64,000 bases of DNA, taken from Minisyncoccota bacterium (lineage in GTDB: Bacteria > Patescibacteriota > Minisyncoccia > Phycocordibacterales > JABAAK01). Every line of letters begins with the position of its first letter. Position 1 is the first letter of the stretch. A program made the position numbers and the translations under genes. Below the pieces are notes generated by a model. The model was not told the DNA's origin, ran no database searches, and saw nothing but the letters and a program-made list of their open reading frames with translations. Of this stretch, positions 507 through 55,625 are shown one piece after another. Location: the NCBI GenBank assembly GCA_965216295.1, contig OZ244141.1:78163-142162 (forward strand), given 5' to 3'.

Positions 507-1193
507 CTAACGAACGCAACCTCTAAATTTATCGGTTCCTTTAGTTCTTTGACAAATTCTTTCATCACAACGGTGCCAAGATTTTACCACTTTATTTGAA
601 ATATTATATTCAGAGTCAGTTGAACTAGCAACATCTCTACAAGAAGCTATGTCTTTTTGTTTTATGTGTTTTGACCTAAGATTTTTGGAAGAAGTACAAA
701 GACTGTCATCCCATCGTCCATTACTACAATATATTGACTTACATTTCCAATTTTTATCTCTTTTGTGATCATGAGGAATTAATACTCCCACTTGCGTTCT
801 GTTAGCACAGTTACTTACACGTACCTGATCAGAGGGACGCTTTGCTATGAAAGTACACCATTCTTGAGCAGTTTTTGTTGGAATGAAAAGATCTTGTTTG
901 AGATTTCTTTTTCCCTGAATGCCACGACATATGCCGTGCTCATCTATTTCAATCTTCTGACCAGAGATTGATAATTTGTAGCTAGGTTTAGTTGGACTTC
1001 TGTTTGTGTTTCGTGTCGGCACACCACTTTCACTACACCCACCTCGATTGTACGGGGCAGCTATAGTTTCCCTCCATTCGTGTCCATGAGCGTATGAACC
1101 AAGGGCAAGCAGCGTTATTAGAAACATTACTCCAACAACACTGATATTTTTACAACGTACTGTCATATTTCTTTTCATATTTAATAAACCCAA
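507..1193 (-). CDS. Secreted cysteine-rich hypothetical protein
   Basis: N-terminal hydrophobic signal-like segment (VVGVMFLITLLALGSYAHG); about 12 Cys in the mature part. No family recognised. Overlaps the next gene by 13 nt, suggesting an operon. Confidence 0.45.
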   Translation of the reverse strand: MGLLNMKRNMTVRCKNISVVGVMFLITLLALGSYAHGHEWRETIAAPYNRGGCSESGVPTRNTNRSPTKPSYKLSISGQKIEIDEHGICRGIQGKRNLKQDLFIPTKTAQEWCTFIAKRPSDQVRVSNCANRTQVGVLIPHDHKRDKNWKCKSIYCSNGRWDDSLCTSSKNLRSKHIKQKDIASCRDVASSTDSEYNISNKVVKSWHRCDERICQRTKGTDKFRGCVR

Positions 1194-2374
1194 TCAGAGA
1201 GCCAGGTTGCCAATTGCCAATAATCTGGCAATTCTTTTGTGTATACCTCCGCACCAGTTTCTACATCGTATATTCGCACAACAACAGGTGATGTTTGCGA
1301 TCCTTCTTCATCGTAAATAGAAGTATCAGTTAATTGAACCGCAACAAACCGGTTATCGGGTGAAAACGTAGACCAGAACCCAGCAATTGGATGTCTTGCC
1401 TTCAGAGTTGCAGTAAACGAACCTGGATTCCAGTCAGAAACGGTAAAGATGTAGAAATTAGTGTTGTAGTAATCGCTGAGTGCTATATACCTCCCGTTGG
1501 GAGATATAGAAATCTTTTGTAACTTTGATCCGGCTAATTGAACAAAATTTGAACCATCACCACCTATTGCTATAGTGATAAGGTTATTCTGTTCACCTGT
1601 TTCTATATTATACGTTGCAAGTCCACCTTCACCGACATAAACAACCGCTCTATCATTAAATGGGTGTGGCACAGGGTTTGCTCCCTTTATTTCATTCCAC
1701 ACAAGACTCTCACCCTCAAGCGTTACGATACTTGAATCAACTAACGGTTCAGCGGAATCGTCTTCCACTATTCTTGTTGCTGAAAAAACAATCCTGCCAT
1801 CACCAAGAGAAATCGGCACCGAAGTACTCAATGTTGCAATAGAGTCCGGTGAAAGAAATGTTAAATCAGTACCGTCTTGATTAACTAATGCAAGGCGAGT
1901 AAAGTTTGCCACCGCGTCAGGTTGATTTTCATCAGTAACAAGTGTGGAATAAAGCAGAGGAAGCTTGTTCGTTGTAGGAGAAACAACTCCAGCAATGGCA
2001 GCAAAATCATCACCTGTTTCTATCGTTATCGCATACACTTCACCAGTAACCACATCAAGTGTAAGTGGCTTCACTGACTCATCACCACCCTGTTTCGCAC
2101 TACTCAAGATAATCTTTCCTTTGAGTAAACTGCGAAGTTCTGCATTTTGAACAAATGGTGTTGGTGACAATTCATCAGCAACTACCAGTACACGCCCAAG
2201 TGATTGAACACTGTCATCTGTGGGAGTGATGGTGGTATCATCGGGGTTAAGAGAATAAACGCCAGTTCGTGTTACGTCTCTAAATAAACCGGAATACTCA
2301 AGAACAACAAACACGAACAGTAAAACGACGACAATGCCAACAAAAAATCCAATTAGTTTATTTTTCATATACAA
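1181..2374 (-). CDS. Membrane-anchored beta-propeller (PD40/TolB-like repeat) protein
   Basis: N-terminal TM (LIGFFVGIVVVLLFVFVVL). Repeated strand-turn motifs typical of WD40-like/PD40 propellers (ISISPNGRYIALSDYYNTNFYIF..., RIVFSATR). Confidence 0.45.
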   Translation of the reverse strand: MYMKNKLIGFFVGIVVVLLFVFVVLEYSGLFRDVTRTGVYSLNPDDTTITPTDDSVQSLGRVLVVADELSPTPFVQNAELRSLLKGKIILSSAKQGGDESVKPLTLDVVTGEVYAITIETGDDFAAIAGVVSPTTNKLPLLYSTLVTDENQPDAVANFTRLALVNQDGTDLTFLSPDSIATLSTSVPISLGDGRIVFSATRIVEDDSAEPLVDSSIVTLEGESLVWNEIKGANPVPHPFNDRAVVYVGEGGLATYNIETGEQNNLITIAIGGDGSNFVQLAGSKLQKISISPNGRYIALSDYYNTNFYIFTVSDWNPGSFTATLKARHPIAGFWSTFSPDNRFVAVQLTDTSIYDEEGSQTSPVVVRIYDVETGAEVYTKELPDYWQLATWLSDWVY

Positions 2375-2408
2375 CCTACACCCCCTGATTGATCCTCGTT
2401 ATCAACAA

Positions 2409-3113
2409 CTATCCACCAATGAGTGCGCGAAGAGCCTGTAGCTCTGCATCCTGCTTATCTACCTGCGTTTGTAACTCTTTGATGCTTTCAATTAACAAAC
2501 CAGTGAGTGCGGGATAATCAACCTGCTTCATGCCATCATTATCTGTCTGCACCAACTCAGGAAATACCCGCTCAACCTCTTGTGCCACAACACCAATTGA
2601 CTTCTCACCGCTTTCTTTGTAAGTAAAGGAATAACCATTGATATTCTGTAACTTTTCACTTGGGTTACCTATCTTTTGTATATTCTCTTTTGCATTTCTA
2701 TCAGATGTATAATAGAAACCAGTCCCAGAAAACTTCCCCCCCTTTACTGATTGAAGCGCCCCCGCATATTTAGAAATTATTGTGTCGTTCTCCCACTTCC
2801 AGAGCAACTCTTCACATTTAAAAAAATTCCCTTCAGCATACCCAACGGTATAACCTTTCGCACAAGTTCCTCCAGGCCTAGGCTGACCTGGCGACTCAGT
2901 CGGCGCAGGATCAAAAAGAGCACTAGAATTAATACATTTCAATCCACTATCTGTCAATGTGAGAAATTCACTATTCCCACAGGCTGCAATTTCAGAGTTT
3001 TGCGATTGAACTGTGTAGTGAGAAAAAGAAATAAGTGTCAGTAACCCAACTAATACTACAGCTAAAAACCAACTGAAGATTAATCTTATACTCATATAGA
3101 CGAAGTGTAACAT
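2409..3113 (-). CDS. Secreted protein with a C-terminal peptidase S74 / intramolecular chaperone auto-processing domain (tail-fibre/endosialidase chaperone type)
   Basis: N-terminal TM/signal. C-terminal about 100 aa match the S74 chaperone domain consensus: YYTSDRNAKENIQKI, GVVAQEVERVFPELV, VDYPALTGLLIESIKELQ. Confidence 0.6.
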   Translation of the reverse strand: MLHFVYMSIRLIFSWFLAVVLVGLLTLISFSHYTVQSQNSEIAACGNSEFLTLTDSGLKCINSSALFDPAPTESPGQPRPGGTCAKGYTVGYAEGNFFKCEELLWKWENDTIISKYAGALQSVKGGKFSGTGFYYTSDRNAKENIQKIGNPSEKLQNINGYSFTYKESGEKSIGVVAQEVERVFPELVQTDNDGMKQVDYPALTGLLIESIKELQTQVDKQDAELQALRALIGG

Positions 3114-3260
3114 GGAATAGAAAAATAAAATCGATGTTGTGGAAATTGGGTAATTATCCTGTGATTCAAGGGCAAGATCAGACTAAAAGAGTGTGGTATA
3201 ACAGGAACAGATCTTCGTTGGTAAGATTTGTTTTTTCACTACACAAAGGAGGAAGAAAAA

Positions 3261-4775
3261 ATGCGTTATACAAAAAACACGCTGTCGTTTGATTCTGTAC
3301 AATTACGAGAAGATATCGTAGAGTCAGATCCAAATGAAAAAAATTATGGCATCAAGTTACACGCTTTGTCGGGTAACCCAGAACTGCTTGCTGCGGTTGG
3401 TGCCTCTCTCTCGAGAAACCCATCTCCACTCAAGGCAAGGCTGAAAAGTTTGAGCCCTGAGGTAAAAAAAAGGATTATGGATAAGTACTTTAAAAGGTAT
3501 GGACATAATTCTATAGGAGATATTGGCCATTTCGCCATTTCTTTTGAGGGAGTTTCAATGCTTGCCGCGTATCTTATATTAAACAATAGATTGTTTGATG
3601 GGCAAGAAGCATCCACTCGATATATAGGGTTTGCAGGAAAATACTGTTTCCCAAAAATCTTTCAAACAGAAGTAGAAGAAGAGTTGTGTCGATCATGGTT
3701 TTCACTATATGAAAGAGTGTTTCACCATTCAATGGAACACTGTATCAAAAGTGGTTACTCAAACGATGCTGCGGAAGCGGCAAGTTTTGACATAGCAGGT
3801 GGTCTGCTCCCTATCGCAACGAGAACATCAGTTTTCTTTGTGGGGAGTATACGAACCTTCTTAAAACAACTCTATTATATAGAAAGTATGGAAGACGAGG
3901 TATGCGAGTTGAGAGAGCTTGGGGAGAAACTGAGAGCATTACTGCTGGAAGTTTGTCCAAATTCTGTCTCATTAAAAAAAAGTGGTTCAATTGAAGCACA
4001 AAGAGAGATGACATTAACGCCATCGTTTGATGCTGTTGATCGAATTTTAAGAGTTGGTCTTGATTCTTATCTTCACCACGGATGGTCTGTTAGCGTAACA
4101 CCTATTCAAAAAAATTACCTCATGAATAAGGTAAAAGAAGGTATGTCAAGCTTGTTTCGCAATACTGCTACGCTTGGTATTAAGGAGGTGCACACCAAAT
4201 TAATACTAGTAGCAATGAGTGATCAAGTGTTTCATTTGTTTCGCGAGAGTCATCGCTTTTCATCTTTAGAGGATATCGTGGATGCTGTAGCAAAAGATAC
4301 TGCAACAGCACTTCTTGGTAACATCTCGGTTTCTTTCAAAATGGATTTTAGAAGTTTGAGAGACCTGCATCGCCATAGGATATTTCCTATCAATCAAGTA
4401 CGTCGCTTTGGAGGGGCGATAGATTGTAATCCTTGGTATCAGGAAAAAGTGAGAGATGTAAAACTCAAACAAGAGATGATAGATTTGTTCTCAAAAACGC
4501 TCGAGACATATAGTGTTCAAAAAAAACAGGAAAAGGGATATATCTCTAGACCTGTTGGTATTTTGCCGATGATGTCTCAGTTCCCTGCCATTATTTCTGG
4601 CAGTTTACACGACTGGTATTCAATGCTCATGACCCGTAAATCGGGAAAGGTGCATCCTGTCGTACATACGTTTGTACAAGACGTGTCTCAGATTATTAAT
4701 CACGGGCTTCGCTTTGATTTAATACAAGACATTCCTCAAACGGTGAATTATGAGAAACGATCGTCAGATAAGTAA
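3261..4775 (+). CDS. ThyX-family (flavin-dependent thymidylate synthase-like) protein, long tandem-domain form
   Basis: GGAGG RBS precedes ATG 3261 (MRYTKNT). The N-terminal half aligns with the ThyX core (GHNSIGDIGHFAISFEGVSMLAAYLILNNRLFDGQEASTRY versus GHETPFEHIVFTFHV...FRHRIASYNELSGRY), with RHR replaced by NNR. The second half keeps SFKMDFRSLRDLHRHRI. Its 515-aa length resembles the long ThyX forms. Confidence 0.45.
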   Translation: MRYTKNTLSFDSVQLREDIVESDPNEKNYGIKLHALSGNPELLAAVGASLSRNPSPLKARLKSLSPEVKKRIMDKYFKRYGHNSIGDIGHFAISFEGVSMLAAYLILNNRLFDGQEASTRYIGFAGKYCFPKIFQTEVEEELCRSWFSLYERVFHHSMEHCIKSGYSNDAAEAASFDIAGGLLPIATRTSVFFVGSIRTFLKQLYYIESMEDEVCELRELGEKLRALLLEVCPNSVSLKKSGSIEAQREMTLTPSFDAVDRILRVGLDSYLHHGWSVSVTPIQKNYLMNKVKEGMSSLFRNTATLGIKEVHTKLILVAMSDQVFHLFRESHRFSSLEDIVDAVAKDTATALLGNISVSFKMDFRSLRDLHRHRIFPINQVRRFGGAIDCNPWYQEKVRDVKLKQEMIDLFSKTLETYSVQKKQEKGYISRPVGILPMMSQFPAIISGSLHDWYSMLMTRKSGKVHPVVHTFVQDVSQIINHGLRFDLIQDIPQTVNYEKRSSDK

Positions 4776-5285
4776 CTCATAACTGTGCGCACCCAAGTAA
4801 TTATTGCTTGGGTGCGTTTTTTTAATCTTATAAGTGCTCCTAGAAGATGCTGTTTTTATTTCACTTGTCTTTGACTTTCTCTTATACACACCGAGCCGTT
4901 TTTTTATTACATCTTTTACATATCGTGAACAGGAAATTTTTTTTAAAACTTCTTCAATAAAACAGACCGGCATTTGTCCTCTGCAAGGTACAGACTTTGG
5001 TAGTTTTTCATGAAAAACCCAATCACAATTAAACCTAGTCATTTTATAAAACACAGAACATTCTTCTGGTTTTATAATCAAAACATTTTCATTTTGAGGT
5101 CGATTTTCAATCTCTTGACTGGTAGCTATAATATAGTAATACTCTCTCCCGCTTGGGGATGTAAAATCACCAAGGACAAGATGGTAGTGTGAATTTGTAT
5201 TGCCAGATTTTTCTAATTGACCACTTACATAATATAAAACATCTCCTCTACTGACATCCATACAAACGATAATTTTCTCTAGCAA
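4764..5285 (-). CDS. MazF/PemK-like putative toxin (endoribonuclease fold) with a Lys-rich C-terminal tail
   Basis: The N-terminal about 100 aa follow the Kid/PemK/MazF pattern (RGDVLYYVSG...GNTNSHYHLVLGD...YYYIIATSQEIENRP..NVLIIKPEE versus MazF GDLIWVDF..G.E.AGHRPAVVLS...CLCVPCTTQ...P.EVVL). Overlaps the upstream Panacea-domain gene by about 38 nt. The likely start is the internal Met at about 5261. Confidence 0.4.
   Translation of the reverse strand: MLEKIIVCMDVSRGDVLYYVSGQLEKSGNTNSHYHLVLGDFTSPSGREYYYIIATSQEIENRPQNENVLIIKPEECSVFYKMTRFNCDWVFHEKLPKSVPCRGQMPVCFIEEVLKKISCSRYVKDVIKKRLGVYKRKSKTSEIKTASSRSTYKIKKTHPSNNYLGAHSYELLI
4787..4829 (+). terminator. Rho-independent terminator downstream of the ThyX-like gene
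   Basis: Hairpin gcgcacccaag-taattattg-cttgggtgcg followed by ttttttt. Confidence 0.6.
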
Positions 5286-5847
5286 CTTCTAGTGTGGATT
5301 CTTCTACTTGCACAGGCCCATCGTTCACAAAAAAATCTTCCTTATCTATTGAAGCACACTGTCCTTCACCAAAATCATGTATGCCATGTTTTTTCCACGC
5401 ATCAAATGCATGCACTCCTTCTGTTTCGTGATTAATGAGATAATTTATATCTTTATCTCCATATTTTTCTAAAACATAATCTAAACACTCAGCATCAACT
5501 TCTGATATATAATCCGTATCTATTTCCTTTTCTTTATTAACTTCTACCGTGCTGTTGTTGTTCTTTATGTACTGTTGGGCATACTCTATTTCCTCTGCGC
5601 TTGTATGCTCACTATCAAAACCAACGATATCTGCCAAGTTTGATGGCACTGGTCCATTTTTAAGTGCTACATAATAATCTCCAGAGATGGTTTCTCCATA
5701 CTTTCTAAGCTTATACACATCTGCCAAAACAGCCAATTTTATTAATTTTAGTGACTCACACCTTTGACCTGGTAATTTATCTAATAAATACCTTGTCATT
5801 TGAACTCTGACCGCCAAACTATCAGAAATTATTGTTTTTGCCTCCAT
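5248..5847 (-). CDS. Panacea-domain (DUF4065, SocA/GepA-like) protein, putative antitoxin
   Basis: LKLIKLAVLADVYKLRKYGETISGDYYVALKNGPVPSNLADIV matches the Panacea core (KL.KLlY.a........G.pi.....y.A...GPV...vyd). Confidence 0.55.
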   Translation of the reverse strand: MEAKTIISDSLAVRVQMTRYLLDKLPGQRCESLKLIKLAVLADVYKLRKYGETISGDYYVALKNGPVPSNLADIVGFDSEHTSAEEIEYAQQYIKNNNSTVEVNKEKEIDTDYISEVDAECLDYVLEKYGDKDINYLINHETEGVHAFDAWKKHGIHDFGEGQCASIDKEDFFVNDGPVQVEESTLEVARENYRLYGCQ

Positions 5848-5908: not shown

Positions 5909-5947
5909 ATACAAAACACTCAGAATTTACTTGGGTGCGTTTTTTTT
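5909..5947 (-). terminator. Hairpin plus U-tract at the 3' end of the LTD gene pair, sharing the cttgggtgcgtttttttt half-site with the 4787 terminator
   Basis: cactcag-aatttac-ttgggtg stem. T-runs on both strands (tttttttt on plus, ttttgtat on minus). Overlaps the last codons of gene 5927..6847. Confidence 0.35.
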
Positions 5948-6847
5948 ATATAAATAACAAGACTTTCGTGCCAATTGAAGTGTGCTTCGCTGCACACACA
6001 ATACTTTCCGAAGAACAAACATTAGATAGAAAAGCTCAATGGTGATAACAACAAAGACAATATCCATCCATCGTAAAACAAAAGTGAGTGTTGAAATAGT
6101 ACCATCAACCACACCTACTCCTCCTCGTTCTTGCACTTTCTCAGCAGAAACGACAGTGGTGTACGACAAGGCCTCGCGTGCGCTTTCTTCTGTTTTGGTC
6201 AACGGAACACTCTGCTCTTGCATCACCCGCTCTTTCAAAGACTCCACTGTAGCGACACGCTCCAACGGGAGTGTGACATTCTTTTTTTTCTGCTGACTGC
6301 TCATCGTTGGTATGGGATTTGTTGCAATAATACCCGGCGTGGCAGGAGCAATGATTTGTTTTCCTCCTCCAACAATATGTTGCGTTGCTCCTGTACCAAT
6401 AATAGGTTCGGTAGGAAGAAAGGAAATGCTGTTTTCCAATTGTCCTGTTTCTGTGGCAGAAATTCCAATCGTTGTTTTTTCATTCGGAATTGTAAAGTCA
6501 GAGATAAAAAGTCTCTGTGTGCGATCTGGGTACAACATATGAAATGTATCTGCGTGCTGTACGATTACCGCAACCGCACCAGAAGGAATCGATGATCCTT
6601 TGTTGTGTTCAAAAATGACATGAGAACGATCTCCAACATGGAATTGCAATTCAGTAACATCAACCGCCACCTCACCATCATTAACCACCTCTATCCATTG
6701 ATACCCCTTCCTAGTTTCACTCGTTGGTTGGTACATCACTTCAGTGATAACAACTTGCGCATGAATAGAAACACTCATCGCAAGAAAAAAGAGTGTTGCG
6801 ACACAAAAACCAGTGAGTTGATGAATAGTACACATTTGCGTATACAA
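5927..6847 (-). CDS. Secreted/membrane-anchored lamin-tail-domain (LTD) protein
   Basis: N-terminal signal/TM. VVITEVMYQPTSETRKGYQWIEVVNDGEVAVDVTELQF is a typical LTD core. C-terminal hydrophobic segment. Confidence 0.55.
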   Translation of the reverse strand: MYTQMCTIHQLTGFCVATLFFLAMSVSIHAQVVITEVMYQPTSETRKGYQWIEVVNDGEVAVDVTELQFHVGDRSHVIFEHNKGSSIPSGAVAVIVQHADTFHMLYPDRTQRLFISDFTIPNEKTTIGISATETGQLENSISFLPTEPIIGTGATQHIVGGGKQIIAPATPGIIATNPIPTMSSQQKKKNVTLPLERVATVESLKERVMQEQSVPLTKTEESAREALSYTTVVSAEKVQERGGVGVVDGTISTLTFVLRWMDIVFVVITIELFYLMFVLRKVLCVQRSTLQLARKSCYLYKKNAPK

Positions 6848-6849
6848 AT

Positions 6850-9222
6850 CTAGAGACTGCTCGTCGTCACGAAAATGCGTGGCAATAATTGTGTATTGCT
6901 CTCATTGTGTGCTGAATCAACAGCAGTGAGAGTACAGTCAGCAAATGTCCCTTCTGATAATTTGTAGTGTATGCCGTGACTACCATTACGGACAAGGTAT
7001 GGCAGTGATCCAATATCACAAGAACCGTCGTAATTCAATTGCGCCCAGTCACCCATCGTTAGACTAGCAACAGACACAGGGATAATTACTTTATTTCCGT
7101 AGAAACCAAGTGTTTGTGCATTCGTACCAAGTGTCAATTGTGGTGCCTGCGTGTTACGAACAACAACAATGCTGTCTCGAACGCTACTAACATTACCATC
7201 TCCATCACTTACTTTTGGTCTTATGAACACACGATTATCACTTGCTACACCATTTTCTGGTGAGAAGTGAATGCGGTACTGTACAACAACAGCACCTCTT
7301 GCTGCATTACTCACCGACACCCTTTCAAATCGAGCAGATGCTTCTGTTTCTATCCTTGGCACATCTTCAAGATATGTAGTTATGGTGTCGCGTGAATAGT
7401 TGGTAGTGCTATCAGCAATAGTTACCTGAAAGGTCACTGTGTTTTCTGTTGTGAAAAAGAGATTTTTCCCAGAAGTAACTGGATTGCCGTTAAAGGTAGT
7501 GATAGTGACATGTGGAATATCAGAACGAACCTCCTTGGCAGTTCCACCGCCACCGCCCGATATTACCCCTTGATCTCCAGGGAGACTACCAGGAGTTGGT
7601 GTTGCTTCAAAGATGGTTCTTGTTGATGAGATGTGTAGTGTTTTGCCACTATCTTTTTTAGCACCATCATTACTTGTGTACGAGATAGAGTAGAGTTCTT
7701 CTCCGGTACTAATCTTTTGTATCACAATCGTATCACCTGGATCGTTGAGAGCAAAAGTGCTGGTATATAGAGGTCCTGTGTATGCACCAAACGCTAATCT
7801 GAATGCTTCTGCATTTCCTGTAATAATTGCGACTTCCCCGCTTGCGATAGTCTGATCACCAGAGACATGGGTGATGGCTCTTCGTTGCCCTCCCTCAACA
7901 ACCTTGAGGTCTGCAAGATTCACTACTGCACTACTGTCGTTAACAATCTCTATCCATTCATCTCCTTCTGAAGAGTTGTAAGAGATTTCTGTTATCCGCA
8001 CTGCCGTCTGTACGATTCCTGAAATCTGTGGTGACGTTGTGTAGTATTCATTACCACCCTTATCAACCGCTCGCACACAAACCTTCTTGCCGTTGTTTTC
8101 AGGGTCGGTAATGCTGAAACGCGCCTCTCCATTTACCAATGAAATAGTTGTCTCAACATTTCTTGATGCAACATATTCTGCTTTGGTAGCACAACTCACT
8201 GTTCCTGTTTTGTAAAAAACAGTATCTGTTAAGTACGTATCAGCAACTTGTAGAATAACTTCTTTGTATGATGATGTTCCTGTCGGCTCTATCGTCACTG
8301 ATACGGTTGGTGGTGTGCTATCAAAAATCACTTGTTTACCATCGTGTGCCACGGTACCGCTTTTTGTAAGAGCGGTGCCAGAGTCATCGGTGAGACCGTG
8401 TATGGTATAGGTAACAACACCTTCCATAGAGGTAGACGGTAGTGTGTATGACGCTTCTTTCCGCACACTGTCTTCTCCAGAAAAATTCACCGATCCAACG
8501 TCATCACTACCAATATGAAATGTCGCCGTAGGTGTCTGGGTATCTCTCTCATGTAATAATTCCAAGGTAATTGTATCGCCAACTCCAACAAAAATACCTT
8601 CATTCGTTTCCTCCCCACCAACAGCGCTGGTAATCACGGAAAATCCAATGGGTGATGGTAGTGTGTAGGCTGTGTCTGGTGGGTTAATCGCTACCTCTCC
8701 TGGTGTTGCGGGTGCGACGATAAGATCGTTTTCTGTTGTGAGGTGGAGTGACATGCCTGTGTCTTCTGCACGGTAATCTTGTGTGTAAGTAATGGTATCA
8801 ATGACTGTTTCGCCTTGATAGAGTTTGATGGTTGCACCCTCTGGTAGTGAAATATCAGCGGTATAGACACCTCCTACAGAACTCCCATACGTTGTGGAGA
8901 ACAAGGCTGCGTCTTGTACGATAACTGCACTTTTTCCTGCACTCAACGTTGCTTTTGTGCTGCCATGTGTGCTGATACTTTGCTTTGCATCATTATCCAC
9001 TTGAATGCTCAACTCCGTGATAGTAACTGTATCCGTTCCATCGGCAATAATCTCAAGCCAATCACCACTTTTCACACTGCTGTACATAATCTCCGTTATC
9101 TCAACGGTATTTTGGGATTGTGCCATTGCAGGCATGGCGCTACCAACCAAGGTGGCTATAAATAAAGTAAGGACAAGGGGGGTGTATAGGAAATAAGTTT
9201 TTATGGTGTGGGTGTGAGACAT
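6850..9222 (-). CDS. Large secreted protein with two lamin-tail domains and Ig-like repeats
   Basis: Signal peptide (LVLTLFIATLVGSAMPAMA). LTD motifs VEITEIMYSSVKSGDWLEII and VRITEISYNSSEGDEWIEIVNDSSAVVNLADLKV. Thr/Ser-rich beta-rich body. Confidence 0.55.
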   Translation of the reverse strand: MSHTHTIKTYFLYTPLVLTLFIATLVGSAMPAMAQSQNTVEITEIMYSSVKSGDWLEIIADGTDTVTITELSIQVDNDAKQSISTHGSTKATLSAGKSAVIVQDAALFSTTYGSSVGGVYTADISLPEGATIKLYQGETVIDTITYTQDYRAEDTGMSLHLTTENDLIVAPATPGEVAINPPDTAYTLPSPIGFSVITSAVGGEETNEGIFVGVGDTITLELLHERDTQTPTATFHIGSDDVGSVNFSGEDSVRKEASYTLPSTSMEGVVTYTIHGLTDDSGTALTKSGTVAHDGKQVIFDSTPPTVSVTIEPTGTSSYKEVILQVADTYLTDTVFYKTGTVSCATKAEYVASRNVETTISLVNGEARFSITDPENNGKKVCVRAVDKGGNEYYTTSPQISGIVQTAVRITEISYNSSEGDEWIEIVNDSSAVVNLADLKVVEGGQRRAITHVSGDQTIASGEVAIITGNAEAFRLAFGAYTGPLYTSTFALNDPGDTIVIQKISTGEELYSISYTSNDGAKKDSGKTLHISSTRTIFEATPTPGSLPGDQGVISGGGGGTAKEVRSDIPHVTITTFNGNPVTSGKNLFFTTENTVTFQVTIADSTTNYSRDTITTYLEDVPRIETEASARFERVSVSNAARGAVVVQYRIHFSPENGVASDNRVFIRPKVSDGDGNVSSVRDSIVVVRNTQAPQLTLGTNAQTLGFYGNKVIIPVSVASLTMGDWAQLNYDGSCDIGSLPYLVRNGSHGIHYKLSEGTFADCTLTAVDSAHNESNTQLLPRIFVTTSSL

Positions 9223-36933: not shown

Positions 36934-39444
36934 ATGAGTTGGTATACTATAATAAAAAAAAATAATTTGTTAAAAATACTGTTGATACTTTCCATCTCTG
37001 GTTTTCTAGTTGTGGCTGGCTTTATGATTCTTTTTTTCACCTTCACACCACTACCAGACATTGAACAAATCGGACTTGTTGGTGACACTGAATCAATTAA
37101 AATCACTGATCGCAACGACAATTTTTTATTTGATTTTTCAGAAAACAAGAGGCGTAAATATATCTCTTACGAAGATATATCAAAAAATATTATTAATGCA
37201 ACAATTGCCATAGAAGATAAAAACTTTTTTAATCATGGTGGTGTTGAATTTGGAGCTCTGTTGCGAGCAACATTAGTCAATCTGCGCAGTGGTGATTTTA
37301 CGCAAGGTGGTTCAACCATTACACAGCAGGTAGTGAAAAACCTGCTTCTAACAAATGAAAAAGATGTGGTGCGAAAATTAAAAGAATTTGTTTTGGCAAT
37401 AAAACTAGAGAGTGGTTATTCAAAGGAGGAAATTCTTAGTTTTTACTTCAACAACATTTCATATGGTGGTGTTATTTATGGTGTTGGTGAGGCGGCAAAT
37501 TCGTTTTTTGGAAAATCAGCAAAAGACATATCTGTTGCAGAAGCTGCCTATCTTGCAGCGATACCAAACGCACCAACACGACTTTCCCCATACAGATCAA
37601 ACAAAAAAGACCTGGAAAAAAGAAAAAATTACACATTAGAAAGGATGCTGAGTTTGGGATTTATTAACCAAGAACAATTTATCTCAGCAAGTAATGAAAA
37701 TGTATATTTTCAAAAACAAAATGTTTTTTCTGTAAAAGCACCTCATTTTGTTTTTTTTGTTAAAAATCATTTAGAGAATAAATATGGTGATACTTTGAGA
37801 AATCTACAAGGGAAAACAATTCGCACAACACTTGATTTAGAATTACAACAACACACAGAAGAGGTTGTTCGAGAGTTTGCACCAAAGCTTGAAGAAAGAT
37901 ATGGAGCAAAAAACACCGCCGTGGTGATACTTTCAACAAAAACAGGTGATATACTCACCATGCTTGGTTCAAAAGATTATTTTGATACAGAGGTTGATGG
38001 TGAGGTAAATGTCACCACATCATTAAGACAGCCGGGATCTACATTTAAACCATTTGTATACGCAACACTTCTTGAAAGGGGGTTTACACCCCAAACAACA
38101 CTTTTTGATGTACCAACACAGTTTAGTACAAGATGTTTAAAAACGGACATAACATACCCTGAAGAGGGGGATGATGAGTTTTTTGAGAAAAACAATGATT
38201 GTTATTTACCAAAAAACTATAATGAAAAATTTCACGGTCCAGTAAGTTTTAGAGATGCGCTCGCACAATCAATCAACATAGCTGCGGTAAAAGCAATGTA
38301 TATCGCCGGATTGCCAGACGTTATTAAGTTGGTAAAATCTGCTGGAATTACCAGCATATCAAGTGGTGGTAATTATGGATTAACATTAGTACTTGGTGGG
38401 GGTGAAGTAAGCCCTCTTGAGTTGGGTGATGCATACACTATATTTGCAAATGATGGTGAGTTTGTTGAATATCGATGGGATGTCTCATCTCCAATAATTA
38501 AAAGAAAAGTTCTGCCAACTGGAGTTGCTCAAGATATTAATGATATACTTTCAGACAACAAGGCGAGATCGCCAGCTTTTGGATTACACTCACCTCTTCG
38601 TTTTGACAAATACTCGGTTGCGGCAAAAACTGGTACTACCAACAACTCTCGTGATATTTGGGTAGTTGGTTACACTCCAGATGTGGTGGTTGTTGTTTGG
38701 GGTGGTAATCCTATTGGAGACCCTATTATTGATGGTGTTGGTGGTACTGGGTTGGCACTCTCCTCAATGTTTCATAAAATTATTGAAAAGGCTGCGGATT
38801 TGTATAGTTCACCACAAAGTAAATTTTCGAAAAATGTGCAACCAAAACCAACCCAACCACCAGCGCTTCGTGGTGTCTGGTGGGATACTAGAGATAAACC
38901 ACACTCAATACTTCACTATCTTAACAAGAAAGATCCTGTAAATGAAAAACCTTTGTATGAAAATGATTCTCAGTATGATTATTGGGAATACGCAATACAA
39001 GAATGGGAGAAAGATAATGGTGCTTTGTTATATCAAAGAATGAATGATGTGGAAAAAGTAAAAAATGGAAATTATTTAAAAATTGTATTACCTGTTTTAG
39101 GTACTATCATACAACCTGATGAGTATCAAACTGTGCAAATTATTAATACTAATGAAAACACATCTCGTTATGAATTTTATATACAAGATAAACTAATTGG
39201 ATCATCACATCTACCAAACATATATTTTTTACCATCCCTCTTTTTAGACGGTTCTGAAGAAGTGTTGTATATTAAGGTTGTTGTATATAGTAATAATGGT
39301 ACTAATATTATAGAACAAGAGTATAAAACAAATCTATATAGCGGTTTTGATAATACACCCCCATCAATAGAATCAGAAGAAGATCAGTTTTTTATATTCA
39401 GCAATCCAGTACCAATACCAAGACAATTCGATAGAGATTTTTAA
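36934..39444 (+). CDS. Bifunctional class A penicillin-binding protein (PBP1A-type) with a C-terminal extension of about 250 aa
   Basis: GT51 motifs (IAIEDKNFFNHGGVE; ...GGSTITQQ), transpeptidase STFKP, SxN, KTG(T). Confidence 0.85.
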   Translation: MSWYTIIKKNNLLKILLILSISGFLVVAGFMILFFTFTPLPDIEQIGLVGDTESIKITDRNDNFLFDFSENKRRKYISYEDISKNIINATIAIEDKNFFNHGGVEFGALLRATLVNLRSGDFTQGGSTITQQVVKNLLLTNEKDVVRKLKEFVLAIKLESGYSKEEILSFYFNNISYGGVIYGVGEAANSFFGKSAKDISVAEAAYLAAIPNAPTRLSPYRSNKKDLEKRKNYTLERMLSLGFINQEQFISASNENVYFQKQNVFSVKAPHFVFFVKNHLENKYGDTLRNLQGKTIRTTLDLELQQHTEEVVREFAPKLEERYGAKNTAVVILSTKTGDILTMLGSKDYFDTEVDGEVNVTTSLRQPGSTFKPFVYATLLERGFTPQTTLFDVPTQFSTRCLKTDITYPEEGDDEFFEKNNDCYLPKNYNEKFHGPVSFRDALAQSINIAAVKAMYIAGLPDVIKLVKSAGITSISSGGNYGLTLVLGGGEVSPLELGDAYTIFANDGEFVEYRWDVSSPIIKRKVLPTGVAQDINDILSDNKARSPAFGLHSPLRFDKYSVAAKTGTTNNSRDIWVVGYTPDVVVVVWGGNPIGDPIIDGVGGTGLALSSMFHKIIEKAADLYSSPQSKFSKNVQPKPTQPPALRGVWWDTRDKPHSILHYLNKKDPVNEKPLYENDSQYDYWEYAIQEWEKDNGALLYQRMNDVEKVKNGNYLKIVLPVLGTIIQPDEYQTVQIINTNENTSRYEFYIQDKLIGSSHLPNIYFLPSLFLDGSEEVLYIKVVVYSNNGTNIIEQEYKTNLYSGFDNTPPSIESEEDQFFIFSNPVPIPRQFDRDF

Positions 39445-40560
39445 TTACTTATTAAGTAGTGGTGAGATAAGTGCTGTAAATAGTTTATGTGAAGCTCCTT
39501 GTATTAAAATAGGTTTTACACCACCACTAACAAAACAAAATCGTATTTTTTCATCATTAATGACTTGTATAGCGTCATTAATAAATCGATAGTTAAAATT
39601 TGGTAATTCCCCGCCCCTTTGTAAATCAGCGATTGGTATTCTATCCTCTGTGGATCCAATAGTATCATTATCAAAATATAGAACAATATAATTACCATCA
39701 ATCTTCATTTTTATAGTATTTAGTGTGTTAGAAAAATATTTTGCTTTTTTGAAAAAATTAAGTACATCATACTTTAAAACAGTGAAACTAATATCAAAAT
39801 TGGTTGGTATTATTTTTTTATAATCTGGGAAAGTGCCAGATGTTGATCGTGTGAAAAAAGTACCCTCTTTCATACCAACACACACACCCTCATCACCTAT
39901 GGTAAGAGCAACTGATGGATTGATTGATGATTCTAATATTTTTAAAATTTTATTAACATTTTTTGCTGGTATAAGTACATCAAAATCTTTAACCATATCA
40001 TCAACAAGAAATCGTATTTCAGCTAATCTAAATGTGTCTGTTGCAACAAAATATATATTTTTTTCTTTAGTTTTAATAAGTACATTATTAAGCTCTTGTT
40101 TAATAACACTTGTAGCTGCGGCGTGTTGGGTTGCTCTCAGTCCACAAATAAACACTTCACGATCTATTGAGAATTTGTTTTTTATATCCTTTGTGTTGAT
40201 ATTTGGAAATTCATCAACAACTCCAGAAATTGTTTTAATTTTTGAAACACTACTCTCTGTTTTAATTTGTAAAACAGAATTATTTTCAACCAAATCTAAT
40301 TCAATAACTGAGTCAATAATTGGTGAAACAACACCGTCAAATATTTTAATTGAAACAATAAACTCTCCCTCACTCTCAACCTCAACATCTGTTTCATACA
40401 CCATAGAAATATCAAATTGAGTAAGATATAAAGATAATTTTTTATCTTTCACAATAATTTTTACAGGATCCTCAACCACCTCACCTAGTTGTGGTGTCAC
40501 TATCCTTGTTAATGTCCTTACACTATTTTTTAAAAAGCTGGTTAATACTTTTACTTTCAT
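39445..40560 (-). CDS. dnaN: DNA polymerase III beta sliding clamp
   Basis: Length of about 370 aa, three-domain clamp-like pattern, and position immediately downstream of dnaA. Confidence 0.7.
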   Translation of the reverse strand: MKVKVLTSFLKNSVRTLTRIVTPQLGEVVEDPVKIIVKDKKLSLYLTQFDISMVYETDVEVESEGEFIVSIKIFDGVVSPIIDSVIELDLVENNSVLQIKTESSVSKIKTISGVVDEFPNINTKDIKNKFSIDREVFICGLRATQHAAATSVIKQELNNVLIKTKEKNIYFVATDTFRLAEIRFLVDDMVKDFDVLIPAKNVNKILKILESSINPSVALTIGDEGVCVGMKEGTFFTRSTSGTFPDYKKIIPTNFDISFTVLKYDVLNFFKKAKYFSNTLNTIKMKIDGNYIVLYFDNDTIGSTEDRIPIADLQRGGELPNFNYRFINDAIQVINDEKIRFCFVSGGVKPILIQGASHKLFTALISPLLNK

Positions 40561-40805
40561 ATTATATATAGTTTATTATTATTGTTATAAGTGTTGAAAA
40601 GTGTAAAAAGAGAAAATAATGAATAATACAAACCTCTAATAGAATTATTATTGTTATTTTCTTGTATAACTTTTTGTGTATAACTTTTTAGAAAATAATT
40701 TAAATCAAATTGATTGTTAATAAGTATTGTTTTTTTAACCAAAACACAAACATGTTTTAAACAATTTATATTTTTATTATTATATACAACATTCAACATA
40801 ATAAT
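40561..40805. promoter_or_regulatory. AT-rich dnaA-dnaN intergenic region with DnaA-box-like motifs (candidate oriC/DUE)
   Basis: About 80% AT. TGTGTATAA (40675-40683) and TTGTATAAC, both one mismatch from the TTATCCACA/TGTGGATAA consensus. Confidence 0.4.
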
Positions 40806-42182: not shown

Positions 42183-42329
42183 TATGGGGTATGAAGTCAA
42201 AAAAGCAAAATAGATATATAGCAGTGCTCTCAATTAAGATGTGTATAACGTTGTGAATAACTAAATAAAAATAGTATTGTGTTGTTTTGATAGATAAGGT
42301 ATACTCAGCAAGTCACACTCTCAACTTTT
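42183..42329. promoter_or_regulatory. dnaA-rpmH intergenic region with two DnaA-box-like motifs (candidate oriC part / dnaA promoter)
   Basis: TGTGTATAA (42240-42248) and TGTGAATAA (42252-42260). Classic rpmH-dnaA origin context. Confidence 0.4.
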
Positions 42330-42449
42330 ATGCACAAAAGAAGTGTAAAAAAAACAAACAAAAAACACGGTTTTCTATCAAGGAGTAAAACAAGCTCAGG
42401 AAAGAAGGTTATTCAACGAAGAAGGCTTCGAGGAAGGAAAAGTATATAG
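42330..42449 (+). CDS. rpmH: 50S ribosomal protein L34 (not in the ORF track; found by manual translation)
   Basis: Translation gives MHKRSVKKTNKKHGFLSRSKTSSGKKVIQRRRLRGRKSI, matching the L34 pattern (K(R)T.Q....K...HGFR.R......G..VL..RR.KGRK.L). Its stop overlaps the rnpA ATG. Confidence 0.8.
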   Translation: MHKRSVKKTNKKHGFLSRSKTSSGKKVIQRRRLRGRKSI

Positions 42450-42766
42450 TGATGCAGAAGAAAATATCATCACAAGAGATTAAAAACTATCTTCGGGGGG
42501 GTGTTAGGGTTTCAAATAACAGTCTGGTGATTATTTATCATAAAAAACAAGAAAGAAAATCTGTTGCAGTTATTATATCAAAGAAAAAAATTAAAAATGC
42601 TGTAAAAAGAAATTATGTTCGTCGAGTAATACGATCTCTTGCGCAATCAGAAAAAGAATTAAAAGGAATTTTTATTTTTATCTATAAATCAAAAGAAACA
42701 AAAAATGAGCGTATACAAAAAGTAATACAAGACGCAATCAAAACACTAAAGGATAAGTTAGTATAA
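42449..42766 (+). CDS. rnpA: Ribonuclease P protein component
   Basis: Small basic protein with an RnpA-like N-terminus, immediately downstream of rpmH. Confidence 0.75.
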   Translation: MMQKKISSQEIKNYLRGGVRVSNNSLVIIYHKKQERKSVAVIISKKKIKNAVKRNYVRRVIRSLAQSEKELKGIFIFIYKSKETKNERIQKVIQDAIKTLKDKLV

Positions 42767-42835
42767 AAAGTGCTATTGTGGAAAACATACTAAACAAAAA
42801 CAAAAAAAAGAGTAATGGTATATACTGACTGAGTA

Positions 42836-46965: not shown

Positions 46966-46969
46966 ACAA

Positions 46970-48790: not shown

Positions 48791-48791
48791 A

Positions 48792-49397: not shown

Positions 49398-49400
49398 ACG

Positions 49401-49823: not shown

Positions 49824-49864
49824 ACACCCCCAGTATACCGCTTCTTTGCCACCCCACCTTCCAA

Positions 49865-50176: not shown

Positions 50177-50179
50177 ACA

Positions 50180-52096: not shown

Positions 52097-52102
52097 ACAT
52101 TA

Positions 52103-55606: not shown

Positions 55607-55625
55607 TATATTCAGTATAACTCAG

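What the first reader, a model, noticed from the sequence alone, without database searches (positions are those of the whole stretch)
2409..3113. Phage-tail-fibre-type intramolecular chaperone (peptidase S74) domain on a short cellular secreted protein
The C-terminal about 100 aa (YYTSDRNAKENIQKI...GVVAQEVERVFPELV...VDYPALTGLLIESIKELQ) match the auto-cleaving trimerisation chaperone of endosialidase tail spikes. That domain cleaves at the Ser of SDRxxKENI after assisting fold of a trimeric beta-helix or fibre. Here the mature N-terminal part is only about 110 aa and Cys-containing. The gene sits in a run of co-directional secreted-protein genes (507..3113), with no phage structural genes nearby. 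This suggests a host-encoded trimeric surface fibre or adhesin that uses a phage-derived maturation module.
Basis: partly seen in the sequence, partly recalled or inferred. Interest (0 to 1): 0.55.

Follow-up and report, generated by a model that had tools for sequence, protein, structure and literature searches.

The report
Secreted self-cleaving fibre stub with partner gene
A small-genome bacterium encodes a short exported protein ending in the self-cleaving trimerisation chaperone known from phage tail fibres. It belongs to a widespread, apparently undescribed two-gene cellular cassette in which a second exported protein is encoded just downstream.

Summary
ORF 2409..3113 (-), 234 aa, has a complete C-terminal Peptidase_S74 / intramolecular-chaperone domain (PF13884 E=3e-15, Ser137/Lys142 in SDxxxK, fold matches MyRF and endosialidase chaperones). 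It also has an N-terminal hydrophobic signal or anchor and four Cys in a roughly 100-aa mature part. That mature part has no detectable homologue among 1.84 billion representative proteins.

The window is cellular (DnaA, PolA, RNR, aaRS, tRNAs), most likely a CPR/Patescibacteria-type organism. No phage genes were found in the window. The DNA left of the window could not be retrieved.

The idea itself is not new. Bdellovibrio MAT fibres are cellular S74-terminated adhesins. I also found exported S74 proteins of 174-290 aa in many CPR genomes.

The new result concerns gene 3 of the same operon (507..1178). It carries a roughly 60-aa N-terminal domain (FIPTKT..EW) that is absent from Pfam, the PDB and the phage collections searched. 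Genes with this domain lie directly downstream of S74 genes in 23 of 77 genome loci. Conversely, about three-quarters of loci picked by this domain alone have an S74 gene just upstream. Partner-linked S74 proteins share an aromatic-x-Tyr-x signature just before the cleavage Ser, and this protein has it too.

Best model: a cleaved trimeric stub that docks a modular partner, analogous to phage gp37-gp38.

The parts
2409..3113 (-). Whole ORF of the S74 protein (234 aa from the first ATG). The likely start is Met7 at 3093..3095, as in database copy P0001 (228 aa). The stop codon is 2409..2411.
3024..3092 (-). N-terminal hydrophobic segment, aa 8-30 (SIRLIFSWFLAVVLVGLLTLISF). It is a signal peptide or a signal-anchor. 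A possible signal-peptidase site is V-Q-S|Q after aa 36; this site is my reading of the sequence.
   Evidence: The Kyte-Doolittle 19-residue maximum is 2.54, centred on aa 20. AF2 predicts a helix at aa 2-30.
2763..3023 (-). Orphan mature region, aa 31-117. It has four Cys arranged as two C-x14/15-C pairs (C45/C60 and C84/C100), separated by a Pro-rich linker.
   Evidence: No homologue was found in 1.84e9 representative proteins apart from a spurious HYR-repeat hit. No Pfam family matches at E<=10. No similarity to the mature parts of 80 other S74 proteins. A profile of typical short family members aligns only from aa 125 onward. AF2 pLDDT is below 50.
2706..2762 (-). Conserved pre-cleavage stretch, aa 118-136 (GALQSVKGGKFSGTGFYYT). 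It corresponds to the usual 'KLxVxGxIxAxxF.Y.' run before the cleavage Ser, and ends in the partner-associated signature F133-x-Y135-x.
   Evidence: alignments
2703..2705 (-). Codon of Ser137, the predicted nucleophile and cleavage site. The Lys142 codon is 2688..2690.
   Evidence: SDxxxK motif as described in PMC10769870
2412..2705 (-). S74 / intramolecular-chaperone (ICA) domain, aa 137-234, including the long C-terminal helix at aa 200-233.
1181..2368 (-). Gene 2 of the operon: 395 aa with an N-terminal transmembrane anchor. Its start lies 40 nt after the S74 stop. There is only a faint beta-propeller hint and no detectable homologues. Unrelated single-pass membrane proteins sit at the same position in L047, L090 and L008.
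507..1178 (-). Gene 3 of the operon: 223 aa with a signal peptide and a Cys-rich C-terminal part. Its ATG lies 2 nt after the gene 2 stop. It carries the conserved partner domain.
783..1010 (-). Partner domain of about 60-75 aa (...SYKLSISGQKIEIDEHGICRGIQGKRNLKQDLFIPTKTAQEWCTFIAKRPSDQVRVSNC). It has an invariant Phe and Trp and a near-invariant P-T.
   Evidence: An HMM built from locus copies scores the window copy at E=1.1e-23, and it is the only copy in the 64 kb window. Conservation is shown.

Best explanation
The ORF encodes an exported protein of a small-genome, CPR-like bacterium, either secreted or N-terminally membrane-anchored. Its C-terminal 98 residues are a genuine S74 intramolecular-chaperone domain.

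Inferred mechanism:
1. After Sec-dependent export, three chains associate through the S74 domains.
2. The S74 domains template folding of the short upstream region into a trimer.
3. The Ser137/Lys142 dyad cuts the chain just before Ser137 and the chaperone trimer is shed.
4. What remains is a stub of about 100 aa per chain, probably stapled by two disulfides, whose new C-terminus ends ...G-F-Y-Y-T.

The gene is the first of a three-gene operon. It is a divergent member of a two-gene cassette, frequent in CPR genomes, made of an exported S74 protein followed by an exported partner protein. The partner has a conserved N-terminal domain of about 60 aa and a variable C-terminal part that is adhesin-like in the members scanned.

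My favoured model is that the partner's conserved domain docks onto the tip exposed by S74 cleavage. The stub would then be the stalk or anchor and the partner the functional head. This parallels T-even phage gp37, whose trimer tip is capped by the product of the next gene, gp38.

Shown here: domain identity, catalytic motif, export signal, cellular context, genetic linkage, and covariation of the tip signature with the partner. Inferred: trimerisation, cleavage, docking, and a role in adhesion.

The confidence of 0.6 is for the whole statement. By component it is roughly 0.97 for the S74 domain identity, 0.8 for membership of a cellular two-gene cassette, and 0.35 for the docking step.
For: S74 identity.

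Export signal.

Cellular chromosome.

Operon packing: intergenic gaps of 40 nt and 2 nt, and no terminator-like site on the minus strand.

The family is cellular and exported:
- 29 of the best 80 genome loci are CPR.
- 46 of 58 complete ORFs have a hydrophobic N-terminus.
- Lengths run from 174 to 1850 aa, with 174-290-aa members in Falkowbacteria, Saccharibacteria, Taylorbacteria and Woesearchaeota.
- Further 235-259-aa members occur in metagenomes.

Linkage of the partner domain to S74 genes:
- 23 of 77 loci have the domain on the same strand within 2 kb downstream of the S74 stop, 20 of them within 200 nt. For CPR loci the figure is 17 of 28.
- Of 30 domain copies in 769 kb, 23 fall in that zone against about 3 expected (binomial p about 1e-17).
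- In the reciprocal test, 24 metagenome loci were chosen by the partner domain alone. Of the 22 with at least 200 nt upstream, 18 have an S74 domain just upstream. Counting distinct new loci, this is 9 of 12.

The partner is not seen in phages: IMG/VR gave no confirmed hit, and two tblastn searches of 50,697 phage genomes gave no match at E<=1.

Partner C-termini carry TSP1, Gly_rich_2, InlB B-repeat and FN3 modules.

Covariation: Tyr at position -2 from the cleavage Ser occurs in 23 of 24 partner-linked S74 proteins and 15 of 56 others. Within non-CPR taxa it is 7 of 7 against 8 of 44 (Fisher p=5.6e-5). The window protein has F(-4) and Y(-2).

Precedent: one gp38 caps the gp37 trimer through conserved Trp residues (PMC6851490). 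Cellular S74 fibres with proven cleavage are described in PMC10769870.
Against: - The roughly 87-aa mature region has no homologue and no confident structure, so nothing shows it is trimeric or fibre-like.
- It lacks the W-x-x-P-x-x-x-P-P-x-G-N start typical of the CPR members.
- In the window the partner is separated from the S74 gene by gene 2. An intervening membrane-protein gene is also seen in L047, L090 and L008.
- The partner domain could not be modelled (pLDDT below 50), and it has no sequence similarity to gp38, so docking rests on analogy and covariation only.
- The covariation may partly reflect shared ancestry of an S74 subfamily.
- Two of the reciprocal loci are the same contigs as loci in the first set (L092=L058; L101/L102=L037).
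- The organism has no close relative (best ThyX match 32-48% identity), so conservation of this exact gene cannot be tested.
- The left flank is unknown.
Confidence: 0.6

Rival explanations
1. It is a prophage or phage-remnant tail fibre fragment. A C-terminal piece of a phage fibre gene was left in the chromosome and fused by chance to a hydrophobic N-terminus, with no cellular role.
For: The S74 relatives from the protein search whose contigs could be read (P0004, P0006, P0010) sit on phage-like contigs with endolysin, NinG, ERF and very large co-directional ORFs. More than 1000 phage genomes carry the domain. A toxin-antitoxin pair lies 2 kb away. The N-terminal part is an orphan. The DNA left of the window is unseen.
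Against: No phage structural, integrase or terminase family was hit among the ORFs scanned with Pfam across the window, or with PHROGs for the first six ORFs. The domain is intact, with both catalytic residues. The export signal is shared by 46 of 58 complete cellular S74 ORFs. The operon contains the partner domain, which is linked to S74 genes in cellular genomes and absent from the phage collections searched. GC content is unremarkable.
Confidence: 0.08
2. It is a stand-alone small trimeric surface adhesin or lectin. The downstream partner is co-regulated but does not bind it. For example, both could be independent surface proteins, or the partner could interact with the released chaperone trimer or control cleavage.
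For: S74 proteins without a partner nearby are the majority (54 of 77 loci). Bdellovibrio MAT fibres work with their own tips (PMC10769870). Gene 2 separates the two genes in the window.
Against: The partner gene starts within 200 nt of the S74 stop in phyla as distant as CPR, Hyphomicrobium, Bdellovibrio and an archaeon. The partner domain is found away from an S74 gene in only a minority of loci picked by it. The residues that best separate partner-linked from other S74 proteins lie at the mature C-terminus rather than being spread over the chaperone.
Confidence: 0.22
3. The S74 domain here is not a shed chaperone but stays attached as a permanent trimerisation module. Alternatively, the gene is decaying and the roughly 100-aa region is a non-functional linker.
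For: The mature part is very short, unmodellable and without homologues. No orthologue is available to test for purifying selection.
Against: Ser137 and Lys142 and all other invariant positions of the domain are kept. The reading frame is intact. Even shorter exported members (174 and 180 aa) are conserved between a Falkowbacteria genome and another Patescibacteria genome.
Confidence: 0.08

Closest known systems
Bdellovibrio bacteriovorus MAT (mosaic adhesive trimer) fibres, S74 subgroup, e.g. Bd3182 (PMC10769870)
   Same: These are chromosomally encoded, non-phage, signal-peptide-bearing surface proteins. They end in an S74 domain with SDxxxK, and for Bd3182 the domain was shown to self-cleave at the Ser and leave a trimeric tip. 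They are used by a bacterium that attaches to other bacteria.
   Different: MATs are about 1000 aa with long beta-helical shafts and a conserved domain of about 130 aa after the signal peptide. The window protein has 234 aa and an orphan mature part of about 100 aa. The paper mentions no conserved downstream partner. The window organism is CPR-like, not a Bdellovibrio.
T-even phage long tail fibre tip: gp37 trimer capped by the gp38 adhesin (Salmonella phage S16, PDB 6F45; PMC6851490)
   Same: The S16 gp37 chain is the only PDB sequence hit of the S74 domain. The next gene encodes a separate protein whose conserved N-terminal domain, with conserved Trp residues, attaches to the trimer tip, and whose variable C-terminal part binds the receptor. 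The gene order, a conserved N-terminal module followed by a variable adhesin-like C-terminus, is the same as in the cassette found here.
   Different: It is a virion component without export signals. No sequence similarity between the partner domain and anything in 50,697 phage genomes was found. The gp38 attachment domain is a three-helix bundle. The partner domain here looks mostly beta with one helix, but the model is unreliable. This is an analogy, not shown homology.
Endosialidase / K1F tailspike and T5 pb1 C-terminal intramolecular chaperone domains (PDB 3GW6, 3GUD, 4UW8), the Pfam PF13884 archetypes
   Same: Same domain family, same Ser-Lys motif, same C-terminal position, and a fold match.
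   Different: Those chaperones fold large triple-beta-helix or fibre proteins of virions. Here the client is a stub of about 100 aa on an exported cellular protein.
Eukaryotic MYRF ICA domain (PDB 7DC3; PMC3742443)
   Same: It is the best structural match of the model. It is another case of the phage-type domain being used by a cellular membrane protein, with trimerisation-dependent self-cleavage.
   Different: In MYRF, cleavage frees the N-terminal transcription factor from the membrane anchor, which lies C-terminal to the ICA domain. Here the hydrophobic segment is N-terminal, so cleavage would free the chaperone rather than the N-terminal part.

Membership tests
[quoted passage not shown] | Profile match above the curated threshold | tested here: met
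   56.6 bits against a cutoff of 22, E=3.1e-15. Matching PHROG profile C-termini (mostly tail-fibre families) reach E=1.9e-30.
[quoted passage not shown] | Catalytic Ser and Lys in an S-D-x-x-x-K motif at the start of the domain | tested here: met
   S137-D-R-N-A-K142. Both residues are invariant in alignment A1 and across about 90 aligned S74 domains.
[quoted passage not shown] | Fold of the chaperone domain, including the long C-terminal helix | tested here: met
   In the AF2 model, aa 145-234 have pLDDT 75-86 and there is a helix at aa 200-233. Foldseek top hits are 7dc3 (E=6e-5), 3gw6 and 3gud. The monomer model has only moderate TM scores.
[quoted passage not shown] | Trimerisation-dependent autoproteolysis releasing the domain | not testable with these tools
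   Needs expression of wild type and S137A, plus mass spectrometry. No multimer prediction was available.
Phage tail fibre / tailspike with a C-terminal chaperone | Encoded within a phage structural gene cluster | tested here: not met
   No phage structural, packaging or integrase families were found in the window. The neighbours are cellular. The left flank beyond the window could not be obtained.
Phage tail fibre / tailspike with a C-terminal chaperone | Cytoplasmic virion protein without an export signal | tested here: not met
   There is a strong N-terminal hydrophobic segment at aa 8-30.
Bdellovibrio MAT fibre family (S74 subgroup) | Conserved beta-rich domain of about 130 aa directly after the signal peptide | tested here: not met
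   An exhaustive phmmer search with aa 33-136 against 1.84e9 representatives found no relative of any kind. The test is indirect, because no MAT sequence was compared one to one.
Bdellovibrio MAT fibre family (S74 subgroup) | Long (about 1000 aa) trimeric beta-helical shaft | tested here: not met
   The whole protein has 234 aa and the mature part about 100 aa.
Bdellovibrio MAT fibre family (S74 subgroup) | Signal peptide plus a C-terminal S74 domain with SDxxxK on a chromosomal, non-phage gene | tested here: met
   cellular context
S74 protein + 'FIPTKT..EW' partner cassette (defined here) | Gene for an exported protein with the partner domain downstream on the same strand | tested here: met
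   The window domain at 783..1010 scores E=1.1e-23. It lies about 1.4 kb after the S74 stop, with gene 2 in between. L008, L047 and L050 show spacings of 1.2-1.6 kb.
S74 protein + 'FIPTKT..EW' partner cassette (defined here) | Aromatic residue at -4 and Tyr at -2 before the cleavage Ser | tested here: met
   G-F133-Y-Y135-T-S137. Tyr at -2 occurs in 23 of 24 partner-linked proteins and 15 of 56 others.
S74 protein + 'FIPTKT..EW' partner cassette (defined here) | Mature N-terminus starting W-x-x-P-[ST]-x-x-P-P-x-G-N, typical of CPR members | tested here: not met
   The motif is absent. A profile of nine typical members aligns only to aa 125-229.

The most novel reading that the evidence does not exclude
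The S74 stub and its downstream partner form a two-component surface appendage that is widespread in CPR/Patescibacteria and present in some DPANN archaea, Bdellovibrionota and other bacteria. Self-cleavage of the S74 chaperone would expose an aromatic C-terminal tip on a membrane-proximal trimer. That tip would capture the conserved N-terminal domain of a modular adhesin carrying TSP1, Gly-rich, InlB-repeat or Cys-rich heads. This would be a cellular counterpart of the phage gp37-gp38 fibre tip, used by ultra-small episymbionts to attach to host cells.
Probability: 0.3. Interest if true: 0.8.

Novelty: new variant of a known kind. Interest (0 to 1): 0.55.

Why it matters
How ultra-small CPR bacteria recognise and hold on to their host cells is largely open. 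The work I found in the searched literature concerns type IV pili (PMC12206443). An abundant, exported, self-processing trimer module with a conserved and exchangeable partner would be a concrete adhesion candidate that can be tested.

The partner domain of about 60 aa has no Pfam family, no PDB sequence match and no paper I could find. Its strict placement after S74 genes gives a simple rule for annotating hundreds of 'hypothetical' surface proteins.

The result also extends the theme of phage chaperones borrowed by cells (MYRF, Bdellovibrio MATs) to very small client domains. It suggests a testable role for the residues left at the cleavage site.

For the single gene taken alone the result is more ordinary: it is a divergent member of a known kind of protein.

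Tried and rejected
Retrieving the organism's own contig to inspect the left flank failed.
- Exact-product look-ups for four window proteins were not on record.
- Genome and metagenome scans with the full protein found nothing.

Searching for orthologues by synteny failed.
- The closest ThyX relatives are only 32-48% identical.
- Their loci have no S74 gene.

Searching for relatives of the mature region (aa 33-136) found nothing.
- Exhaustive phmmer gave only self plus a repeat-driven HYR-protein hit (P0012), which I judged spurious.
- Pfam at E<=10 gave nothing.
- blastp against the mature parts of 80 S74 proteins gave nothing significant.

I considered that the two C-x14/15-C segments might be disulfide-stapled versions of the 'GQVL...W' hairpin seen in some fibre proteins. 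No statistical support was found, so I make no such claim.

Structure prediction was of limited use.
- The monomer AF2 model of the S74 protein gave nothing usable for aa 31-144.
- The AF2 model of gene 3 was poor throughout the partner domain, so I did not run a fold search on it.

Other negative results:
- The profile search of the partner domain in the word-indexed protein database returned only five short hits, and the PDB returned none.
- Gene 2 has no PDB hit and only a sub-threshold beta-propeller hint.
- Literature searches for S74 or PF13884 together with CPR terms found nothing relevant.
Full report
**1. The observation**

The ORF lies on the minus strand at 2409..3113 and encodes 234 aa. 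The public database holds the same protein starting at Met7 (P0001, 228 aa). It is a single-member cluster from one 511,782-bp NCBI/ENA contig.

The C-terminal domain is well supported.
- Pfam PF13884 (Peptidase_S74, 'chaperone of endosialidase') matches aa 137-188 at 56.6 bits, against a cutoff of 22 (E=3.1e-15).
- 41 PHROG families match at E<=0.01. In the 25 listed, mostly tail-fibre and other tail families, aa ~105-233 align to the C-terminal ends of the profiles, with E down to 1.9e-30.
- The only PDB sequence hit is the distal long-tail-fibre subunit of a phage, 6f45_A (E=2.5e-9).
- The motif is T-S137-D-R-N-A-K142-E-N-I, and the Cys residues are at 45, 60, 84 and 100.
- Ser137 and Lys142 are invariant in an alignment with nine relatives and across about 90 S74 domains aligned later.

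An AF2 model was built with that shallow alignment. It gives an N-terminal helix at aa 2-30, nothing reliable for aa 31-144 (pLDDT below 50), and a moderately confident C-terminal domain with a long terminal helix (pLDDT 75-86). Foldseek against the PDB returns the MyRF ICA domain (7dc3), the endosialidase chaperone (3gw6) and the GA-1 chaperone (3gud) as the top matches.

**2. The surroundings**

The window is a cellular chromosome. It contains:
- six scattered tRNAs;
- an ABC transporter with FtsX and HlyD components, class I ribonucleotide reductase, L19, a pseudouridine synthase, UppS and MscS;
- a class I aaRS, PolA, a type IV pilus ATPase, PBP1, DnaA and a VirB4/TraG-like ATPase;
- RuvABC, DnaN, YidC, TsaE, KsgA and UvrD, plus PrgI-like and T4SS-pilin-like proteins.

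Several features fit a CPR/Patescibacteria-type organism: about 40% GC, a roughly 0.5-Mb contig, lamin-tail-domain surface proteins and a monoderm-type T4SS. This assignment is an inference, because no marker-based classification was possible.

The organism has no close relative in the databases. The best ThyX homologues are 32-48% identical, and their loci show no S74 gene.

Upstream of the S74 gene, on the opposite strand, is a long ThyX gene. Beyond it are a Panacea-domain antitoxin with a putative toxin.

Downstream on the same strand:
- gene 2 (1181..2368, 395 aa, N-terminal TM anchor) starts 40 nt after the S74 stop;
- gene 3 (507..1178, 223 aa, signal peptide, Cys-rich) starts 2 nt after the gene 2 stop.

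No terminator-like site lies between them on that strand, so the three genes look like one operon.

No phage structural family was found among the window ORFs scanned. I could not obtain the DNA to the left of the window. A prophage further left is therefore not formally excluded.

**3. The mature part is an orphan**

The word-indexed search found only S74-domain matches, covering at most 46% of the query. An exhaustive phmmer search with aa 33-136 against 1.84 billion representative proteins returned only the protein itself and a weak, repeat-driven hit to a hyalin-repeat protein, which I regard as spurious. Pfam finds nothing even at E<=10.

Homology with other S74 proteins begins around aa 118-125. 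This is the conserved stretch that precedes the cleavage Ser.

The protein therefore consists of:
- a hydrophobic signal or anchor, aa 8-30;
- about 87 orphan residues with two C-x14/15-C pairs and a Pro-rich linker;
- a conserved pre-cleavage stretch of about 19 aa;
- the S74 domain.

Whether the N-terminal segment is cleaved cannot be decided here. V-Q-S|Q after aa 36 is a plausible signal-peptidase site by my reading.

**4. Is a short, exported, cellular S74 protein unusual?**

It is not. The concept is published. Bdellovibrio bacteriovorus has 13 chromosomal 'MAT' fibres that end in an S74 domain with SDxxxK. Cleavage at the Ser was shown for Bd3182 (PMC10769870).

A scan of one genome per species with an alignment of the S74 domain found 512 relatives. 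Of the best 80 loci, 29 come from CPR lineages (Saccharibacteria, Gracilibacteria, Paceibacterota, Falkowbacteria, Peribacteria and others). The rest come from DPANN archaea, Omnitrophota, Bdellovibrionota, Bacteroidota and others.

Of 58 complete ORFs, 46 begin with a hydrophobic segment (19 of 20 in CPR). Lengths range from 174 to 1850 aa. Short members include:
- 174 aa on a complete Falkowbacteria chromosome;
- 180 aa in another Patescibacteria genome;
- 190 aa in a Woesearchaeote;
- 250 aa in a Saccharibacterium;
- 284 aa in a Taylorbacterium.

The neighbours of the two shortest are large unannotated proteins and a cupredoxin, not phage genes. Short phage S74 proteins also exist, for example Lu11 gp197 at 268 aa. 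The S74 relatives from the protein search whose contigs could be read lie on phage-like contigs, which fits exchange of the module between phages and cells. No paper in the searchable library links S74 or PF13884 with CPR.

**5. An unexpected conserved partner**

I searched the operon partners against the 80 loci. Gene 2 matched nothing. A stretch of about 60 aa in gene 3 (aa ~66-130) hit many loci, nearly always just after the S74 gene.

The ORFs hit are exported proteins. Directly after the signal peptide, their N-terminus carries the same domain. Its consensus is roughly GYRv..g..i.V.EHG.C..V.N.s....yFIPTKT..EW..F....P..V.l..C, with invariant Phe and Trp.

An HMM of this domain finds 30 copies in the 769 kb of loci and one in the window, at 783..1010 (E=1.1e-23). 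Eight of the positive loci had not been used to build the model.

Among the 77 loci with at least 400 nt after the S74 stop:
- 23 have the domain on the same strand within 2 kb;
- 20 of those have it within 200 nt;
- the split is 17 of 28 CPR loci and 6 of 49 other loci.

Random placement would put about 3 of the 30 copies there (binomial p about 1e-17). In two Bdellovibrionales loci the partner gene is adjacent but on the other strand.

The reciprocal test used 24 metagenome loci selected only by the partner-domain pattern. Of the 22 with at least 200 nt upstream, 18 carry an S74 domain on the same strand just before the partner domain. After removing near-duplicates, and two contigs already present in the first set, this is 9 of 12 distinct new loci. 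Several of these S74 proteins have only 235-259 aa.

The partner domain is not in Pfam and has no PDB sequence relative. It was not found in IMG/VR, where 11 pattern matches were all unconfirmed, nor in 50,697 phage genomes by tblastn at E<=1 with two different copies.

Behind the conserved domain the partners differ widely, from about 105 to 1235 aa. They include thrombospondin type 1 repeats, a Gly-rich domain, InlB B-repeats and FN3. That pattern is typical of adhesins or other binding proteins.

In the window, and in L047, L090 and L008, a gene for a single-pass membrane protein lies between the S74 gene and the partner gene. These intervening proteins are not detectably related to each other.

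**6. A link between the cleavage-site residues and the partner**

I aligned all S74 domains and compared partner-linked proteins with the rest. Several columns differ between the two groups, but the two residues just before the cleavage Ser stand out most clearly (the others lie in the body of the chaperone domain, around the G-x-K and Y-x-N-L-V positions):
- Tyr at -2 occurs in 97% of partner-linked proteins and 28% of the rest;
- Phe at -4 occurs in 78% and 34%.

Split by taxon, Tyr(-2) is present in 16 of 17 CPR loci with a partner and 7 of 12 CPR loci without. It is present in 7 of 7 non-CPR loci with a partner and 8 of 44 non-CPR loci without (Fisher p=5.6e-5). Two of those eight are the Bdellovibrionales loci with the partner on the other strand.

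The window protein reads G-F133-Y-Y135-T|S137, so it has the signature. Shared ancestry of an S74 subfamily could contribute to this association, and a phylogeny-aware test is needed.

**7. How it most likely works**

Established for the domain family (PMC10769870, PMC3742443): S74 domains trimerise, assist folding of the preceding trimeric region, and then cut themselves off at the Ser of SDxxxK.

Applied here by inference, the exported chains trimerise outside the membrane and the roughly 100-aa region folds, probably with two disulfides per chain. The chaperone is then released, leaving a stub whose C-terminus ends F-Y-Y-T. The stub is either held by its N-terminal helix or is free.

The S74 proteins of the cassette share little with one another except the pre-cleavage stretch and the chaperone domain. 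The partners share only their N-terminal domain. The simplest reading of the linkage and of the tip signature is therefore that the partner's N-terminal domain binds the tip created by cleavage.

The phage precedent is the T-even fibre tip. One gp38 adhesin, encoded by the next gene, caps the gp37 trimer through conserved Trp residues of its N-terminal domain (PMC6851490). The deposited gp37 chain of that structure is the PDB sequence that matches our S74 domain. This is analogy only: no sequence similarity to gp38 was found, and the partner domain could not be modelled.

Gene 2 may be a membrane anchor or an assembly factor, but nothing tests this.

**8. Rivals**

- A prophage remnant is unlikely. 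The export signal, the intact catalytic residues, the cellular neighbours and the phage-absent partner all argue against it.
- The partner may be merely co-regulated, or may act on the released chaperone. This cannot be excluded.
- A decaying gene or a non-cleaving trimerisation module is possible but not favoured, because all invariant positions are kept.

**9. Verdict**

Taken alone, the gene is a divergent, very short member of a known kind, the cellular S74-terminated surface proteins.

What raises its interest is the conserved and apparently undescribed S74-plus-partner cassette that it led to. The cassette is concentrated in CPR genomes, where host-attachment mechanisms are still largely unknown.

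Noticed in passing
window 783..1010 (-), within gene 507..1178; loci L008-L111: A domain of about 60 aa (FIPTKT..EW, invariant Phe and Trp) sits at the N-terminus of exported proteins. It is encoded directly after S74 genes in many CPR genomes and some other genomes. It is absent from Pfam, the PDB and the phage collections searched.
   Followed up: yes
loci L008, L016, L020, L037, L039, L047, L050, L051, L058, L063, L079, L088-L090, L097, L098, L106: Many CPR S74 proteins begin their mature part with a conserved motif, W-x-x-P-[ST]-x-x-P-P-x-G-N-x-x-x-P-[LI]-N, right after the signal peptide. The window protein lacks it. Its role, possibly anchoring, is unknown.
   Followed up: partly
window 1181..2368 (-); L047 4911..5750; L090 4346..4888; L008 2145..2831: In four cassettes a gene for a single-pass, N-terminally anchored membrane protein lies between the S74 gene and the partner gene. 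The four proteins show no detectable similarity to each other.
   Followed up: partly
L008 1403..2130: Two small ORFs sit between the S74 gene and the partner gene of a Saccharibacterium. One looks like a nucleotidyltransferase (GS..G..SDIDVL motif) and its neighbour is helical. Together they may form a HEPN/MNT-type toxin-antitoxin pair.
   Followed up: no
L089 2693..5054; L090 4896..10169; L035; L063: Some loci carry two partner-domain genes in tandem or at a distance, with different C-terminal parts. This suggests exchangeable heads.
   Followed up: no
window 4764..5847 (-): A SocA/Panacea-domain protein (199 aa, E=9e-16) overlaps a 173-aa ORF with no family match. This is probably a Panacea-type toxin-antitoxin pair, located 2 kb from the S74 gene.
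   Followed up: no
window 3228..4775 (+): An unusually long ThyX gene (515 aa; the Thy1 domain covers only aa 48-245). Relatives of 427-471 aa occur in other small genomes in housekeeping contexts. The extra C-terminal half has no assigned function.
   Followed up: partly
window 5927..9222 (-): Two adjacent exported proteins (306 and 790 aa) contain lamin-tail domains. They are typical large surface proteins of ultra-small bacteria.
   Followed up: no
window 44984..56594 (-): A cluster contains a T4SS-pilin-like protein, a VirB4/TraG P-loop ATPase, a PrgI-like protein and very large unannotated ORFs (638 and 1167 aa). It resembles the monoderm-type type IV secretion system reported for Patescibacteria (bioRxiv 10.1101/2025.01.22.634366).
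   Followed up: no
window 57939..63097 (-): A tandem array of five paralogous small exported proteins (signal MN[IV]KFLFG...AFAASPSFGTGGYP) with 40-80% identity, followed by two further paralogues of a different family (64% identity). No family match was found for the two members scanned with Pfam.
   Followed up: partly
window 38000..44000: GC content drops to 0.29-0.34 around dnaN (39445..40560) and dnaA (40806..42233), with yidC at 42836..43603. This is probably the replication origin region.
   Followed up: no
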